Positions 12,719 through 17,406 of a stretch of DNA of 64,000 nucleotides are shown in pieces. Positions within the stretch are counted from its first letter, which is position 1. Each line of letters opens with the position of its first letter. Source of the DNA: an uncultured bacterium (GTDB lineage Bacteria > Chlamydiota > Chlamydiia > Chlamydiales > VFKH01); the NCBI GenBank assembly GCA_964630595.1, contig CAZVVT010000001.1, positions 568,813 through 632,812 on the forward strand. The letters run 5' to 3'. The notes below the pieces were generated by a model, which was given only the letters and a program-made list of their open reading frames with translations, was not told the DNA's origin and made no database searches. The position numbers and the translations under genes are program-made.

Positions 12719-13675
12719 ATGGCAGCAGCAGGTGGGGCAGCTTCGGGAGCTGGGGGCTTTGATCGGACACAGACGGAGCTTCTTAAGCTTCAGGATTCAG
12801 GTCATGTCTTGGGAAGGCACAAGGTCTCTCGTGTTGTGGTTGCTATAGCAAGAGAATCTCTTGAGTCGGGTGCCACTCCTTACGAGAAGGTGCCTGATGC
12901 GGAGGTGCGGGAGATGCTACGGTCTTTTCGTGAATTAAGGCCTGACGCCAGCGGTCCCATTGACGCTATTTTGGCTCGGATAAAAGCTCCTCAAACGCCT
13001 TCTGCAAGCAAACGTCTTCCCAAAGACGTCATCGGTGAAATCGGAGCGATACTTGGGGCCAAAGAGGTTCAAGAGCGCTTCATTGAGGCTGGCGAAGAGG
13101 ATAATGCTGAGGTTCTGCAGTTTCTTTGGCAAAATTTCCAAGACCAATTAGATGATGCCACTATCCAAAAGGTCTTTAATGGTGCCGTTGAACGGGGACG
13201 CACCCATGTTTTACGATGGTTTGGAGACATTCCAGAGCTTTTAAATCGCTTGGGTAATGACAAAATCAGGCAAGCCTTCCGCTCTGTCTTAGCCGATACG
13301 CCGTGGACACTAGGTGCTCTAAAAGGTTTCGCTCATCCAGCCATTGTTCCTCGCCTGGATCCCTTTTGGATCCGAATGATGTTCACAAGTGCTGCAAATG
13401 TGGATAAGAGAGAAACCGTAAAGTGGTTTTGCAATACCCCCATCTTCGCTGCTCACCTCGATACAGGCCCCGATGATGATCTGATTCGAAACACTTTTCA
13501 ATACGCTGCGGAATTTGGACGCCTCCCTATTGTGAAGGAGATTCATGCGCATTTTGCGGCGTGCCTAAATATGCGCACGATCAGAGAGTCTCTCTACCGT
13601 GCGAAGCAGAATGGTCACACCGATATGGTGCAATGGCTTCGCACCACTTTCCGAGAGCTTGAATTTCAGGGCTAA
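12719..13675 (+). CDS. Hypothetical repeat protein with ankyrin-like helical hairpins, inserted between bioB and bioF
   Basis: Four copies of the pattern I(R/Q)xxFxxAxxxG(R/H)xxxVxW(F/L): AVERGRTHVLRWF, SAANVDKRETVKWF, AAEFGRLPIVKEI, AKQNGHTDMVQWL. Confidence 0.5.
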   Translation: MAAAGGAASGAGGFDRTQTELLKLQDSGHVLGRHKVSRVVVAIARESLESGATPYEKVPDAEVREMLRSFRELRPDASGPIDAILARIKAPQTPSASKRLPKDVIGEIGAILGAKEVQERFIEAGEEDNAEVLQFLWQNFQDQLDDATIQKVFNGAVERGRTHVLRWFGDIPELLNRLGNDKIRQAFRSVLADTPWTLGALKGFAHPAIVPRLDPFWIRMMFTSAANVDKRETVKWFCNTPIFAAHLDTGPDDDLIRNTFQYAAEFGRLPIVKEIHAHFAACLNMRTIRESLYRAKQNGHTDMVQWLRTTFRELEFQG

Positions 13676-13745: not shown

Positions 13746-14744
13746 ATGGACTTTCTTTTAGATCGACTTCAAGCGCGCGGCGCACTGAGAAGACGCCTTG
13801 TTGCACCGCAGCAAGGATTTGTTGATTTTGCCTCGAACGATTACTTAGGCCTCGCTAAGCGCGCTCACGCACCCCTACAAGGTTCGACAGGCTCGCGTCT
13901 GCTCACCGGCAACCAGAAAAAGTTTGAGGAGGTCGAAGAGCGCATTGCGCACTACTTCGGCGCGGAAAGCGCCCTCATCTACAGCGCCGGCTACACTGCC
14001 AACCTCGGCCTGATTTCGTGTGTTGCGCAAGAAGGAGACGCCATCTTCTTCGACACCGAGGCACACGCCTCCATCCACGACGGCATCGCTCTTTCGAAAG
14101 CCGCCGCCTACCCCTTTCGCCACAACGATCTTGCGCATCTCGAAGAGCGCCTCAAGATTTCCGCGCACCAACGCTTCGTTCTTGTCGAGTCGCTCTACTC
14201 CATCAGCGGCGACTTCGCTCCGCTCGTAGAGCTGCACGCGCTGTGCGAGCGCTACGGCGCTCATCTCATCGTCGACGAAGCGCACACCTCCGGCCTCTAC
14301 GACTGCCCCATTCAGCCCTTTGCACGCATGATCGGCTTCGGCAAAGCATTCGGCTTTCATGGCGCCGCCATCGTCGGCAGCGCACTACTCAAAGAGTACC
14401 TCATCAACTTCTCGCGCAGCTTGATCTACTCCACAGCGCCCTCCTTTTTCCATGTCATTGGCGATCTTCTTACCATCGACCTCGCCCCTTTGCGCGCACA
14501 ACTCTTCTCCCTCTGCCGTTCACCGATCATCCCCATCTACGTGGACGATCCTCGCGCGCTCTCTGCAGAGCTAGCACGAGAAGGCTTTGACATTCGCCCC
14601 ATTCTCTCTCCCACGACACGCAAACCCTGTTTGCGCCTCGTAGTTCACGCCTTTAACACCCCAGAACAGATCCAATCCCTCAAAACATGTCTCCAAAAAT
14701 TGTGGTCGCCGGCATTGGCACAGATGTCGGAAAGACTCTTGTAG
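13746..14744 (+). CDS. bioF: 8-amino-7-oxononanoate synthase
   Basis: FASNDYLGLA, VDEAHTSG, PLP-lysine region GFGKAFGFHGAAI. Position in the bio cluster. Confidence 0.85.
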   Translation: MDFLLDRLQARGALRRRLVAPQQGFVDFASNDYLGLAKRAHAPLQGSTGSRLLTGNQKKFEEVEERIAHYFGAESALIYSAGYTANLGLISCVAQEGDAIFFDTEAHASIHDGIALSKAAAYPFRHNDLAHLEERLKISAHQRFVLVESLYSISGDFAPLVELHALCERYGAHLIVDEAHTSGLYDCPIQPFARMIGFGKAFGFHGAAIVGSALLKEYLINFSRSLIYSTAPSFFHVIGDLLTIDLAPLRAQLFSLCRSPIIPIYVDDPRALSAELAREGFDIRPILSPTTRKPCLRLVVHAFNTPEQIQSLKTCLQKLWSPALAQMSERLL

Positions 14745-15259
14745 CTGCACTCATCGCGCGCAAATTGGGCTATTCGTACTGGAAGCCCATTCAGTGCGGC
14801 CTGCCCAAAGATAGCGACTTCGTGAAGGAGTTCGCCCCCGTAATCCCCGAAGCCTACTGCTTGCAAACGCCCTGCAGCCCACACGAAGCCGCTGCACGCG
14901 AAGGAGTTGTCTTCGGCGATCTGCGGGCGCCCAACATTCCGCTCGTCATTGAACCAGCCGGCGGACTCATGGTGCCCATCGACCACCGCCTCTTCATCGA
15001 TCTCGACTGGGACGCTGAATGGGTGCTCGTCTCGCGCTACTACTTGGGCTCCATCAACCACACACTGCTTTCCGCTCACCTTTTGCGCAGCCGCGGCGTG
15101 CGCGTTAAGGGCATTGTCTTCAACGGCATGGAAAATCCCTACACGAAAAAGGCCATTCTAGCTCAATCTGGACTCACAGAACTTTTTTCGATACCCGAAA
15201 TTAATGGACCTATTAACGCGCGACTTCCAGAGTTGCTGGCATCCGTTCGCCTCAGCTAA
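14687..15259 (+). CDS. bioD: Dethiobiotin synthetase
   Basis: N-terminal P-loop VVAGIGTDVGKT, about 190 aa, between bioF and bioA. Confidence 0.85.
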   Translation: MSPKIVVAGIGTDVGKTLVAALIARKLGYSYWKPIQCGLPKDSDFVKEFAPVIPEAYCLQTPCSPHEAAAREGVVFGDLRAPNIPLVIEPAGGLMVPIDHRLFIDLDWDAEWVLVSRYYLGSINHTLLSAHLLRSRGVRVKGIVFNGMENPYTKKAILAQSGLTELFSIPEINGPINARLPELLASVRLS

Positions 15260-16382
15260 CGACCACTACTTGCCCGTCGTTGCCGCGGAGGGCGAGTGGC
15301 TCATCGCCGAAGGCGGACAGCGCTACCTCGATGCCACCTCCTCATGGTGGTGCAATCTGCACGGCCACTGCCATCCCCACATCGTGCAGGCCATCGCCAC
15401 CCAAGCCGCCACTCTCGACCACGTTCTCTTCGGCAGCGCCACACATCCACAAGCCGTGCGCCTCGCAGAACGGCTTCTTGCGCTCACCGGCTTCGACAAG
15501 GTCTTCTTCTCCGACAATGGATCGACAGCGGTTGAATCAGCACTGAAGATGGCCATCCAATCCTCCAAACGCCGAGGGCCCATCCTCACGCTGAAAAACA
15601 GCTACCACGGCGACACCTTCGGATCGATGTCAGTGGCAAAGAGCGCCTTCCACACTCCCTTCGCCCCGTACTGCTTTCCCACCATCGCACTCGACCCCGC
15701 TCATCTCGATCTCACTCCTTATCTAGATCAAGAGCCCCTTCTCTTCATCTATGAGCCCGCCATCCAGGGCGCTGCCGGCATGCGCCCTTATTCCACGATT
15801 GCTCTCGACGAAATCATCGGCCAATGCCGTCGCTGGGGCATTCTCACCATCGCCGACGAGGTAATGACAGGCTTTGGTCGCACCGGCCCTCTCTTCGTCT
15901 CCTCTGCTTTGCGCCACCAGCCGGACTTTCTCTGCCTCTCGAAGGGAATCACAGGGGGCACGCTGCCCATGGCCGCCACACTCACCTCCAACGCCATTTT
16001 CCGCTCCATCGACCGCTTCCTGCACGGCCACACCTACACGGCCAACCCCATTGCGTGCGCCGCCGCCAACGCCAGCCTCGACCTCCTCGCGGGCTCTAAC
16101 CGCACCCACATCGAGCAGGCCTTCCAACGCCTCAAAACGCTGAAGGCGCCGCGCGTAACCGTCCTCGGCACCATCGCTGCCATCGAACTGCCCTCCTCCG
16201 CCGGTGTTGTCGACCACTTCCTCCAGCGCGGCATTTTAGTGCGCCCGCTGGGCAATGTACTCTACTTCATGCCCCCCTACTGCATTAGCGACGAAGCCCT
16301 TAACCTCCTGATCGAAGCTGTTTATGAACTCCCTGCTCTCCAAAATCGCCGCCAACCCTCAGCTGCATATTCGCTGGCTTAA
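15204..16382 (+). CDS. bioA: Adenosylmethionine-8-amino-7-oxononanoate aminotransferase
   Basis: CWHPF, SSWWCNLHGH, DEVMTGFGRTG, PLP-lysine LCLSKGITGG, C-terminal LYFMPPYCIS. Collinear with E. coli BioA. Confidence 0.9.
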   Translation: MDLLTRDFQSCWHPFASANDHYLPVVAAEGEWLIAEGGQRYLDATSSWWCNLHGHCHPHIVQAIATQAATLDHVLFGSATHPQAVRLAERLLALTGFDKVFFSDNGSTAVESALKMAIQSSKRRGPILTLKNSYHGDTFGSMSVAKSAFHTPFAPYCFPTIALDPAHLDLTPYLDQEPLLFIYEPAIQGAAGMRPYSTIALDEIIGQCRRWGILTIADEVMTGFGRTGPLFVSSALRHQPDFLCLSKGITGGTLPMAATLTSNAIFRSIDRFLHGHTYTANPIACAAANASLDLLAGSNRTHIEQAFQRLKTLKAPRVTVLGTIAAIELPSSAGVVDHFLQRGILVRPLGNVLYFMPPYCISDEALNLLIEAVYELPALQNRRQPSAAYSLA

Positions 16383-16905
16383 CACCCTCTCGTACTTGGA
16401 GAATTGCGGCGCGCGCAAAATTGCCGCCTGCCAACACTCCACTAAAGTACAGCGAGAAATGCTCAAGCACGCCGCGGAGGAGTTTCGCCACGCCTTCCAC
16501 CTCAAAGAACAGATCCGCAAACTGACCACCCACCCACCCATCGACTACAGCCCCGATACAATGCTGGGCGCAAGCGCCAGCTTGCAGTACCTCAATCGCC
16601 TCGACATCGAAGTCTGCCGCTTCCTGAAAGCCAATGGCTACAGTCCCATTCGCGATATTGCCTACCTTTTAGTGACCTATGCCATTGAGCTGAGAGCAGA
16701 TGCGCTCTATCCCGAGTACCACAAGGCGCTGAAGTCAACGAAGTCAACCGTCACGGTCAAATCCATCATGCTGGAGGAAGAAGAGCACCTGCGTGAGATG
16801 GAGGAGCAGCTCAAAGCCTATCCCGAATCCCTCAAAAAGATGGCCATTGATCTGGAAGCCACCCTCTTTGAAAATTGGTTGCGCAGCATAGAGGCTACCC
16901 TTTAA
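16324..16905 (+). CDS. Ferritin-like di-iron carboxylate protein of unknown function, last gene of the bio cluster
   Basis: 193 aa with the ligand pattern E / ExxH / E / ExxH: LENCGARKI, AAEEFRHAFH, YAIELRAD, LEEEEHLREM. Its start overlaps the bioA tail by 59 nt. Confidence 0.6.
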   Translation: MNSLLSKIAANPQLHIRWLNTLSYLENCGARKIAACQHSTKVQREMLKHAAEEFRHAFHLKEQIRKLTTHPPIDYSPDTMLGASASLQYLNRLDIEVCRFLKANGYSPIRDIAYLLVTYAIELRADALYPEYHKALKSTKSTVTVKSIMLEEEEHLREMEEQLKAYPESLKKMAIDLEATLFENWLRSIEATL

Positions 16906-16917
16906 AGTGGTGGTGTG

Positions 16918-17349
16918 ATGGACTTTACAAAACTTCAGCAAGATCTCGCCGAAATTTTAGAGGAAGTGAAGAGGACTCTTCAACTTCCCATCGATGCCAA
17001 AGGCAATCTGCAACCCGGCGCTAGTCTCACTCTGGAAGATCTCGAAAAACTCCTGAGTCGCACGCAGGGCATGGTCGATCAGCTCAACAGCCGCGCCGAA
17101 GCGGTCGCAAAAGAGTCCGGCATGACCCGCGAAGAGATGGCGGAAAAGCTCAAAGATCCTAAAAACTTCTCTCCCGAAGAGTGGCAAACTCTCCAGGCGA
17201 TGAAGAAACAGGTCGAGCAGTTCCAGAACATGCTCAAGCGTACCGTCGTGATGCAAGGCGATGAAAAGCGTATCTCTCACGAACGCGAGCGCCTCAAACA
17301 GACCGGCAACCCCGAAATCCTGAAGCAAAAAAGCTGGATGAAACTGTAA
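16918..17349 (+). CDS. Hypothetical charged coiled-coil protein
   Basis: 143-aa ORF from ATG 16918 (GTG at 16915 in the ORF track). Lys/Glu-rich with no recognisable motifs. Confidence 0.45.
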   Translation: MDFTKLQQDLAEILEEVKRTLQLPIDAKGNLQPGASLTLEDLEKLLSRTQGMVDQLNSRAEAVAKESGMTREEMAEKLKDPKNFSPEEWQTLQAMKKQVEQFQNMLKRTVVMQGDEKRISHERERLKQTGNPEILKQKSWMKL

Positions 17350-17406
17350 TTATTTACGGTTTCTTTTTTCTTTGTAGTTCCCTATTCTTGCCACCTCGAT
17401 TAGTTC

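What the first reader, a model, noticed from the sequence alone, without database searches (positions are those of the whole stretch)
16324..16905. Uncharacterised di-iron protein translationally coupled to bioA: candidate for the missing pimelate-moiety step
The window has bioB, bioF, bioD and bioA but no bioC/bioH, bioW, bioI or bioZ. The last gene of the cluster overlaps bioA by 59 nt. It encodes a 193-aa four-helix-bundle-like protein with the full E/ExxH/E/ExxH di-iron ligand set (LENCGARKI, EEFRH, IELRA, EEEEH), the chemistry used by acyl-ACP desaturases and aldehyde-deformylating oxygenase. BioI shows that oxidative cleavage of acyl-ACP can supply pimeloyl-ACP. A di-iron oxygenase doing an analogous job would be a new route. 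The pimelate genes could simply lie elsewhere in the genome.
Basis: inference. Interest (0 to 1): 0.6.

Follow-up and report, generated by a model that had tools for sequence, protein, structure and literature searches.

The report
BioE pimeloyl-forming oxygenase after bioA

Summary
A 193-aa ORF (16324-16905, +) overlaps bioA by 59 nt and carries a complete E/ExxH/E/ExxH ligand set: E26, E53, H56, E122, E152, H155.

The inferred function is also right, but it is already published. The family is BioE, a ferritin-like di-iron oxygenase that cleaves C14-C18 acyl-ACP/CoA at C7-C8 to give pimeloyl-ACP/CoA (PMC12704756, PMC12915131, both December 2025). The second paper includes a Chlamydia enzyme.

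Evidence for membership:
- The window protein is 47% identical to a Chlamydia-genus orthologue that contains five of the published "CpbioE" primer-derived peptides exactly. It is 48% identical to a Sphingobacterium orthologue close to the Elizabethkingia enzyme.
- All six ligands are invariant in 51 homologues.
- Ten of the eleven published acyl-channel residues are identical.
- In a 151-genome sample of the window's phylum (Chlamydiota, judging from related named MAGs), all 50 genomes with both genes have bioE next to bioA. Four bioA genomes without bioE have a BioC-like gene next to bioA.
- The window's own complete 1.36-Mb genome has no BioC, BioH, BioW, P450 or second FabH.

Verdict: an uncharacterised orthologue, from another chlamydial family, of a known enzyme. 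Interest is low. The scan had noted the operon's long overlaps before, on this same window.

The parts
16324..16905 (+). bioE: 193-aa ferritin-like di-iron oxygenase, inferred to form pimeloyl-ACP
   Evidence: ORF. It is 47% identical over 193 columns to a Chlamydia-genus BioE and 48% to a Sphingobacterium BioE. The AF2 model is all-helical with pLDDT 94.3 and pTM 0.90. It is a single copy in the genome.
16324..16382 (+). 59-nt overlap between the 3' tail of bioA and the 5' end of bioE, implying co-transcription and probable translational coupling
   Evidence: Coordinates. The bioA HMM match ends at residue 375-376 of 392, so the overlap lies in a non-conserved tail. In related loci the bioA/bioE junction is mostly a 4-nt ATGA overlap; L062 also has 59 nt.
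16399..16401 (+). codon for ligand E26 (equivalent to EmBioE E26 and CpBioE E41)
   Evidence: Read from the sequence. Invariant in A1. Aligned with the primer-derived peptides.
16480..16491 (+). E53-F-R-H56, the first ExxH motif (EmBioE E53/H56; CpBioE E68/H71)
16687..16689 (+). codon for ligand E122 (EmBioE E125; CpBioE E140)
16777..16788 (+). E152-E-E-H155, the second ExxH motif (EmBioE E155/H158; CpBioE E170/H173)
15204..16382 (+). bioA, adenosylmethionine-8-amino-7-oxononanoate transaminase
   Evidence: TIGR00508, 395 bits, E 2.7e-118; PF00202
14687..15259 (+). bioD, dethiobiotin synthase
   Evidence: TIGR00347, 82.7 bits against a cut-off of 83.3; PF13500, E 6e-37
13746..14744 (+). bioF, 8-amino-7-oxononanoate synthase, the consumer of the BioE product
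   Evidence: TIGR00858, E 8e-66; PF00155
11029..12033 (+). bioB, biotin synthase
   Evidence: TIGR00433, 402.6 bits, over the cut-off

Best explanation
The ORF is the bioE gene of an environmental chlamydia-like bacterium. It is the last gene of a bioF-bioD-bioA-bioE transcription unit; bioB lies upstream, separated from bioF by two inserted genes.

Its product is a helical-bundle, ferritin-like protein that binds two iron ions through E26, E53, H56, E122, E152 and H155. By homology with the characterised enzymes, it takes a long-chain (C14-C18) saturated acyl chain into a hydrophobic channel. The chain is most probably carried on the cell's own ACP from type II fatty-acid synthesis.

Using O2 and an external electron donor, the enzyme oxidises the chain in several steps and cleaves the C7-C8 bond. 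[quoted passage not shown] BioF then condenses pimeloyl-ACP with alanine, and BioA, BioD and BioB complete biotin.

What is shown here: the gene, its ligands, its orthology, its synteny, and the lack of any other pimeloyl route in the genome. What is inferred from the published orthologues: the chemistry, the chain-length range, the O2 and reductant requirement, and the products. What remains open: whether the carrier is ACP or CoA, the oligomeric state, and the physiological reductant.
For: (1) Orthology to characterised enzymes.
- Peptides translated from the published EmbioE and CpbioE primers (Table S2 of PMC12915131) align at the expected positions. Examples: Em IHAKWLNTLSFMENAGARKIS against window LHIRWLNTLSYLENCGARKIA, and Cp AYILVTYAIELR against AYLLVTYAIELR.
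- A Chlamydia-genus genome (G028, locus L106) encodes a 223-aa protein with five of those Cp peptides exact and the paper's residue numbering. It is 47% identical to the window protein over the full length, E 6e-56.
- Sixteen Chlamydia-genus orthologues are 45-52% identical to it.
- The Sphingobacterium protein P0127 is the closest proxy of EmBioE, with 1/21 and 2/24 mismatches to the Em primer peptides. It is 48% identical to the window protein.

(2) Conserved residues.
- All six ligands are invariant in 51 homologues.
- Of the 11 CpBioE channel residues whose alanine substitution abolished complementation, 10 are identical in the window protein: W18, L22, L25, I33, L90, V117, I121, L128, Y129, Y132. 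The eleventh, L205, is W185.

(3) Synteny. The order bioB-bioF-bioD-bioA-bioE holds in essentially all 76 related loci that are long enough. In 151 genomes sampled from the window's phylum, 50 of 53 bioE genomes have bioA, always adjacent. The four true bioA genomes that lack bioE have a full-length BioC-like gene beside bioA.

(4) The genome is 100% complete and has no BioC, BioH, BioW, P450 or second FabH. It does have ACP and FabH in one cluster, BirA and BioY.

(5) The AF2 model has pLDDT 94.3 and seven helices. The best TM-score in the PDB (0.57) is to an aldehyde-deformylating-oxygenase-type protein, 5ux2_B. Other hits are ferritin-like di-iron proteins. This agrees with the published statement that cADO is the closest solved relative.
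Against: - No experiment has been done on this protein.
Identity to them rests on primer-derived fragments and on near relatives.
- The published carrier-binding residues are poorly conserved. CpBioE K102/Y103/D106 correspond to L87/Q88/N91, and EmBioE K46/R87/H91 to M46/L87/N91. Only R31/K32 and Q88 are kept. ACP versus CoA preference therefore cannot be read from the sequence.
- Foldseek E-values are all weak (best 0.017), and no BioE structure is solved.
- Pfam and NCBIfam have no model for the family. They give only sub-threshold COQ7 hits.
- The genome also has BioY, so biotin could be imported and the pathway might be dispensable.
Confidence: 0.9

Rival explanations
1. The protein is a ferritin-like accessory factor of the late pathway, not a pimeloyl-forming oxygenase. 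For example, it could be an iron donor or protector for the Fe-S enzyme BioB, comparable in role to the mycobacterial BioB helper BsaP.
For: Foldseek's best-ranked hits by E-value are Dps-like and thioferritin iron-storage proteins. The gene sits in an operon with the Fe-S enzyme bioB.
Against: - It is orthologous to enzymes shown to make pimeloyl-ACP/CoA (33, 51, 53, 54).
- It conserves a hydrophobic acyl channel (10 of 11 residues), which a storage protein would not need.
- Under this reading the genome would have no source of pimelate at all.
- bioE and bioC are mutually exclusive next to bioA in the sampled phylum. That fits a replacement of the early pathway, not a helper of BioB.
Confidence: 0.04
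2. The protein is a COQ7/MiaE-like di-iron hydroxylase acting on an unrelated substrate, such as a quinone or a tRNA base, and sits next to bioA by chance.
For: Sub-threshold hits to COQ7: PF03232 at 18.6 bits against a cut-off of 23.5, and NF033656 at 15.7 bits against 180. MiaE appears among the weak Foldseek hits.
Against: The hits are below cut-off and cover only 50 residues. The adjacency to bioA holds in all 50 sampled genomes that carry both genes and in about 70 further loci, which excludes chance. Sequence identity to BioE is 45-52% over the full length.
Confidence: 0.01
3. The gene is a decaying remnant with no function. The organism imports biotin through BioY, as several Chlamydia species do after losing the operon.
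For: BioY is present. Remnant bioE copies with internal stops exist in some relatives: G019, G086, G100. bioA and bioD score slightly below their equivalog cut-offs.
Against: The ORF is intact, with all ligand and channel residues kept. The bioB, F, D and A genes are all intact. Published Chlamydia species that keep the operon also keep BioY.
Confidence: 0.05

Closest known systems
BioE of Chlamydia (CpBioE; Zhang et al., Adv Sci 2025, PMC12915131)
   Same: - The same six di-iron ligands: CpBioE E41, E68, H71, E140, E170, H173 correspond to window E26, E53, H56, E122, E152, H155.
- Ten of eleven acyl-channel residues are identical.
- The same position directly downstream of bioA in a bioBFDA-E cluster.
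- No GntR/MocR-type BioL regulator in the genome.
- 45-52% identity to 16 Chlamydia-genus orthologues.
   Different: - It comes from a different chlamydial family (f1 against f4).
- It lacks the 15-residue N-terminal extension, so its numbering equals that of EmBioE.
- Three of the six proposed ACP-interface residues differ non-conservatively (K102 to L87, Y103 to Q88, D/H106 to N91); two more change conservatively (F39 to Y24, K46 to R31).
- The overlap with bioA is 59 nt rather than short.
- Two foreign genes lie between bioB and bioF.
- Activity, the monomeric state and the acyl-ACP-only specificity are untested here.
BioE of Elizabethkingia meningoseptica / Chryseobacterium indologenes (Xu et al., PNAS 2025, PMC12704756)
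   Same: The length and N-terminal numbering match (E26, E53, H56). L22, R31, K32, Q88, Y117 (window Y114), I124 (window I121) and L131 (window L128) are conserved. The primer-derived fragments are 55-75% identical. The window protein is 48% identical to the closest available proxy, Sphingobacterium P0127. The predicted fold is ferritin-like and nearest to cADO.
   Different: EmBioE is a homodimer, accepts both acyl-CoA and acyl-ACP, sits at the head of a bioEFD unit and is repressed by the MocR-type BioL. Here the gene is last in the unit, no BioL exists, and three CoA-headgroup residues (K46, R87, H91) are not kept.
Cyanobacterial aldehyde-deformylating oxygenase (cADO), the ferritin-like di-iron oxygenase superfamily
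   Same: A helical-bundle di-iron carboxylate site with E/ExxH/E/ExxH ligands and a long hydrophobic substrate channel. It gives the highest TM-score in the PDB search (5ux2_B, TMq 0.57).
   Different: There is no detectable sequence similarity. The reaction differs: cADO removes C1 from an aldehyde, whereas BioE cleaves C7-C8 of an acyl thioester in a 10-electron oxidation.
BioI (CYP107H1) of Bacillus subtilis
   Same: The same logic: O2-dependent cleavage of the C7-C8 bond of long-chain acyl-ACP to give pimeloyl-ACP.
   Different: BioI is a haem P450 with an unrelated fold and cofactor. No P450 exists in this genome.

Membership tests
BioE (ferritin-like di-iron acyl-ACP/CoA C7-C8 oxygenase) | Six di-iron ligands, E / ExxH / E / ExxH, at positions homologous to EmBioE E26, E53, H56, E125, E155, H158 | tested here: met
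   The window protein has E26, E53, H56, E122, E152, H155. They align with the published ligands and are invariant in 51 homologues.
BioE (ferritin-like di-iron acyl-ACP/CoA C7-C8 oxygenase) | Full-length sequence similarity to a characterised BioE. The paper's own search criterion was more than 40% identity and more than 85% coverage to EmBioE. | tested here: met
   - 47% identity over 193 columns to the Chlamydia-genus protein that carries five exact CpbioE primer peptides.
- 48% identity over 195 columns to Sphingobacterium P0127, a family the paper lists as BioE-bearing.
- Caveat: full-length EmBioE itself was not available. Only its primer-derived fragments were compared.
BioE (ferritin-like di-iron acyl-ACP/CoA C7-C8 oxygenase) | Hydrophobic long-chain acyl channel: CpBioE W33, L37, L40, I48, L105, V135, I139, L146, Y147, Y150, L205 | tested here: met
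   Ten of eleven are identical (W18, L22, L25, I33, L90, V117, I121, L128, Y129, Y132). L205 corresponds to W185.
BioE (ferritin-like di-iron acyl-ACP/CoA C7-C8 oxygenase) | Genomic linkage to the late biotin genes bioF, bioD, bioA and bioB | tested here: met
   The gene overlaps bioA in the window. The same order holds in about 70 of 76 related loci. bioE is adjacent to bioA in all 50 sampled genomes of the phylum that carry both.
BioE (ferritin-like di-iron acyl-ACP/CoA C7-C8 oxygenase) | The host genome lacks the other pimeloyl routes (BioC-BioH, BioW/BioI, BioZ) | tested here: met
   on a genome rated 100% complete. In the phylum sample, BioC-like genes next to bioA occur only in genomes without bioE.
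BioE (ferritin-like di-iron acyl-ACP/CoA C7-C8 oxygenase) | Ferritin-like helical-bundle fold, closest among solved structures to cADO | tested here: inconclusive
   The AF2 model is confident and all-helical (pLDDT 94.3). The best TMq, 0.57, is to a cADO-type protein, and the other hits are ferritin-like. However, no Foldseek E-value is below 0.017, and the ligand geometry in the model could not be inspected.
BioE (ferritin-like di-iron acyl-ACP/CoA C7-C8 oxygenase) | Carrier-binding surface: EmBioE F24, R31, K32, K46, R87, Q88, H91; CpBioE F39, K46, K47, K102, Y103, D106 | tested here: inconclusive
   The window has Y24, R31, K32, M46, L87, Q88, N91. R31/K32 and Q88 are kept and the rest differ. 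Carrier preference cannot be assigned.
BioE (ferritin-like di-iron acyl-ACP/CoA C7-C8 oxygenase) | Activity: O2- and reductant-dependent conversion of C14-C18 acyl-ACP/CoA to pimeloyl-ACP/CoA plus the Cn-7 acid; rescue of E. coli delta-bioH / delta-bioC | not testable with these tools
   Known only for EmBioE, CiBioE and CpBioE.
COQ7 (PF03232 / NF033656) | A score over the curated cut-off | tested here: not met
   18.6 bits against 23.5, and 15.7 bits against 180, each over about 50 residues only.

The most novel reading that the evidence does not exclude
BioE may be a major alternative to BioC-BioH for starting biotin synthesis, not a rare route of a few families. Three observations point this way. 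It forms at least 548 clusters at 50% identity, and named members include Sphingobacterium, Bdellovibrionota, Leptonema and 'Verrucomicrobia' MAGs. In the sampled phylum it is the pimeloyl gene in 50 of 54 bioA-bearing genomes. It is mutually exclusive with a BioC-like gene at the same operon.

In this lineage the carrier-binding surface has diverged from both characterised enzymes. The feedstock could therefore differ, for instance host-derived fatty acids loaded onto ACP.
Probability: 0.3. Interest if true: 0.35.

Novelty: new member of a known kind. Interest (0 to 1): 0.2.

Why it matters
It explains how this reduced 1.36-Mb chlamydial genome makes biotin without BioC/BioH, BioW/BioI or BioZ. 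A single O2-dependent enzyme diverts long-chain acyl-ACP into pimeloyl-ACP.

For the field the point is modest, because the enzyme family and its presence in Chlamydia were published in December 2025. This analysis adds three things:
- Orthologues occur across many non-Chlamydiaceae chlamydial families, with very stable bioBFDA-E synteny.
- bioE and bioC-type genes are mutually exclusive beside bioA across the sampled phylum.
- Current Pfam and NCBIfam libraries have no model for the family, so it is still annotated as 'hypothetical protein' everywhere.

Tried and rejected
- A PDB sequence search found no solved BioE and only noise.
- Foldseek against the PDB gave only weak ferritin-like hits.
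- The supplement of PMC12915131 holds no protein sequences or accessions. I used its primer table instead.
- A pattern search with the CpbioE cloning-primer 5' end (23 nt, up to 2 mismatches) found nothing in 30 Chlamydiaceae genomes. The species used in the paper may be the one genome whose access is limited (G005), which I did not pursue.
- Screening the representative proteins with the published residue numbers found proxies for EmBioE (P0126, P0127, P0132) but none for CpBioE.
It returned only chlamydial or 'Verrucomicrobia'-labelled MAGs, so named Elizabethkingia or C. psittaci loci could not be fetched.
- The best BioC-like and BioH-like ORFs of the genome were examined and rejected as generic methyltransferase and hydrolase.
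- The promoter/terminator scan found no more sites than shuffled sequence. It was used only to note a hairpin after the next ORF.

Full report
**Observation**

The ORF 16324-16905 (+) exists, starts with ATG and encodes 193 aa. It overlaps bioA (15204-16382) by 59 nt. Only four sense codons precede the ATG in frame (open frame 197 aa). Conserved residues begin at H15/W18, so the start is fixed.

The bioA profile match ends at residue 375-376 of 392. The overlap therefore lies in a non-conserved tail of BioA.

They give the ligand set E26, E53-x-x-H56, E122, E152-x-x-H155.

The surrounding genes are as follows:

| Gene | Coordinates |
|---|---|
| bioB | 11029-12033 |
| GyrI/Cass2-like gene | 12142-12645 |
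| ankyrin-repeat gene | 12719-13675 |
| bioF | 13746-14744 |
| bioD | 14687-15259 |
| bioA | 15204-16382 |

Pfam and NCBIfam have no model for the ORF. They give only sub-threshold COQ7 hits.

**What it is**

A literature search found that the family was described in December 2025 as BioE. Xu et al. (PNAS, PMC12704756) showed the following for the Elizabethkingia meningoseptica and Chryseobacterium indologenes proteins:
- They are ferritin-like non-haem di-iron oxygenases.
- They bind about 2 Fe per monomer.
- They need O2 and a reductant (PMS/NADH in vitro).
- They cleave C14-C18 acyl-CoA or acyl-ACP at C7-C8, giving pimeloyl-CoA/ACP plus the Cn-7 acid.
- They complement E. coli strains that cannot make the pimeloyl precursor.

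Zhang et al. (Adv Sci, PMC12915131) extended this to a Chlamydia enzyme, CpBioE. It is monomeric, uses acyl-ACP only and has no BioL repressor. They listed its ligands (E41, E68, H71, E140, E170, H173), its acyl-channel residues and its ACP-interface residues.

**Membership**

I could not fetch the named sequences, so I used the primer table of the Adv Sci supplement. Peptides translated from the EmbioE and CpbioE primers align to the window protein at the expected positions, with 55-83% identity. The N-terminal numbering of the window protein is the same as that of EmBioE (L22, E26, R31, K32, E53, H56).

I then fetched the bioE region of 16 genomes of genus g6. This genus has 1.0-1.3 Mb genomes in one or two contigs and is evidently Chlamydia.
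- One genome (G028, locus L106) encodes a 223-aa protein. It contains five of the internal CpbioE primer peptides exactly and has the paper's numbering.
- That protein is 47% identical to the window protein over its whole length, E 6e-56.
- All 16 orthologues are 45-52% identical to the window protein.

The Sphingobacterium protein P0127 is the closest proxy of EmBioE among the representatives. It has 1/21 and 2/24 mismatches to the Em peptides and is 48% identical to the window protein.

Residue conservation is as follows:
- All six ligands are invariant in a 51-sequence alignment.
- Ten of the eleven CpBioE channel residues are identical, and the eleventh is a conservative change.
- The proposed carrier-binding residues are only partly kept: R31, K32 and Q88 are present, but L87, N91 and M46 differ. 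ACP versus CoA preference is therefore open.

An AlphaFold2 model from the alignment is confident (pLDDT 94.3, pTM 0.90) and consists of seven helices. Foldseek against the PDB gives only weak matches, all to ferritin-like, Dps-like or haem-oxygenase-like di-iron proteins. The highest TM-score (0.57) is to an aldehyde-deformylating-oxygenase-type protein. This agrees with the published comparison. No BioE structure is solved.

**Context and phylogenetic profile**

Among 76 related loci from genome records, all from Chlamydiota or MAGs labelled 'Verrucomicrobia', the order bioB-bioF-bioD-bioA-bioE is kept in essentially every locus long enough to show it. The bioA/bioE junction is usually a 4-nt ATGA overlap. 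Longer overlaps occur in several loci, including one of 59 nt.

I sampled 151 genomes of the window's phylum:
- 53 have bioE and 55 have a bioA-like match.
- 50 have both, and in all 50 the two genes are adjacent.
- The three bioE genomes without bioA carry fragments or copies with an internal stop.
- Four of the five bioA-only genomes (G023, G051, G063, G103) have a full-length BioC-like gene (155-173 bits) within 2 kb of bioA.
- The fifth 'bioA' is a sub-threshold aminotransferase.

So bioE and bioC are alternative occupants of the same operon.

**The window's own genome**

The genome is 1.357 Mb in 10 contigs, rated 100% complete, with 52.8% G+C.
- It has one bioE.
- No BioC or BioH reaches its cut-off. 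The best candidates are a generic class-I methyltransferase and an alpha/beta hydrolase.
- It has no BioW, no P450 and only one FabH.
- It has no GntR-type HTH, so no BioL.
- It does have ACP next to FabH, BirA and BioY.

The substrate (long-chain acyl-ACP) and the user of the product (BioF) are thus both present.

**Mechanism**

Shown here:
- an intact, conserved gene that is co-transcribed, and probably translationally coupled, with bioA;
- a complete di-iron ligand set and acyl channel;
- orthology to characterised BioE;
- no alternative pimeloyl route in the genome.

Inferred from the orthologues:
- O2- and reductant-dependent multistep oxidation of C14-C18 acyl-ACP;
- C7-C8 cleavage to pimeloyl-ACP and the Cn-7 acid;
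- use of pimeloyl-ACP by BioF.

Unknown: the physiological reductant, the oligomeric state and the carrier preference.

**Rivals**

Each of these has little support:
- An iron-handling helper of BioB. This is contradicted by orthology, by the acyl channel and by the exclusivity with bioC.
- A COQ7/MiaE-like hydroxylase placed next to bioA by chance. This is contradicted by the invariant synteny.
- A decaying remnant. This is contradicted by the intact operon and residues.

**Novelty**

The specific protein is at most 59% identical to anything in the databases. It comes from a chlamydial family other than Chlamydiaceae, so it is a new member of a known kind.

The earlier scan note on this same window (e1-3579635) concerns the three 56-59-nt overlaps in the operon. 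The coordinates confirm them.

Noticed in passing
window 12142-13675: Two genes lie between bioB and bioF only in this genome: a stand-alone GyrI/Cass2-like small-molecule-binding protein (12142-12645) and an ankyrin-repeat protein (12719-13675). In more than 70 related loci, and in the same-family genome G033 (L092), bioB is followed directly by bioF. A GyrI-like homologue lies within 1.5 kb of the bio cluster in two other loci (L032, L051). Whether it senses a biotin intermediate is unknown.
   Followed up: partly
window 14687-14744, 15204-15259, 16324-16382: There are three consecutive same-strand overlaps of 58, 56 and 59 nt: bioF/bioD, bioD/bioA and bioA/bioE. In relatives the bioA/bioE junction is mostly a 4-nt ATGA overlap; L062 also has 59 nt. 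The window keeps an ATGA at the bioE start, but its TGA is out of the bioA frame. The long overlaps therefore look like 3' extensions of the upstream genes in this 53% G+C genome.
   Followed up: partly
G023, G051, G063, G103 (phylum sample): Four genomes of the phylum sample that have bioA but no bioE carry a full-length BioC-like gene (155-173 bits, just under the 185-bit cut-off) within 2 kb of bioA. bioE and bioC are mutually exclusive in the 151 genomes sampled.
   Followed up: partly
G019:C1:809665-809859; G086:C1:340973-341557; G100:C2:40807-41385: These are bioE remnants or copies with an internal stop codon. G019, a Chlamydia-genus genome without bioA, keeps only a 68-residue fragment. 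This is consistent with the published loss of the operon in some Chlamydia species.
   Followed up: no
protein P0149: A 1911-aa 'Gingipain domain-containing protein' annotated in the freshwater mussel Potamilus streckersoni begins with a BioE-like domain (47% identity over residues 18-195). It is probably bacterial contamination or a chimeric gene model.
   Followed up: no
PMC12915131, supplementary Table S2; L106: The primer table lists two different gene sequences under the name CpbioE. The first set matches the gene of genome G028 exactly in five peptides and encodes H106 (primer 'H106A'). The second, G+C-richer set encodes D106, as in the text. The sequence actually assayed should be checked before residue-level comparisons are made.
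   Followed up: partly
window 16915-17363: A 144-aa ORF (16915-17349) starts 10 nt after bioE. It has no family hit and no homologue in any of the 76 related loci. A terminator-like hairpin with a T-run follows at 17340-17363, so this ORF may end the bio transcription unit.
   Followed up: no
window 10206-11144: A 312-aa protein with a PTP-like phytase / dual-specificity phosphatase domain (PF14566, E 1.5e-19) and an N-terminal hydrophobic stretch lies just upstream of bioB. It could be a secreted effector of this intracellular bacterium.
   Followed up: no
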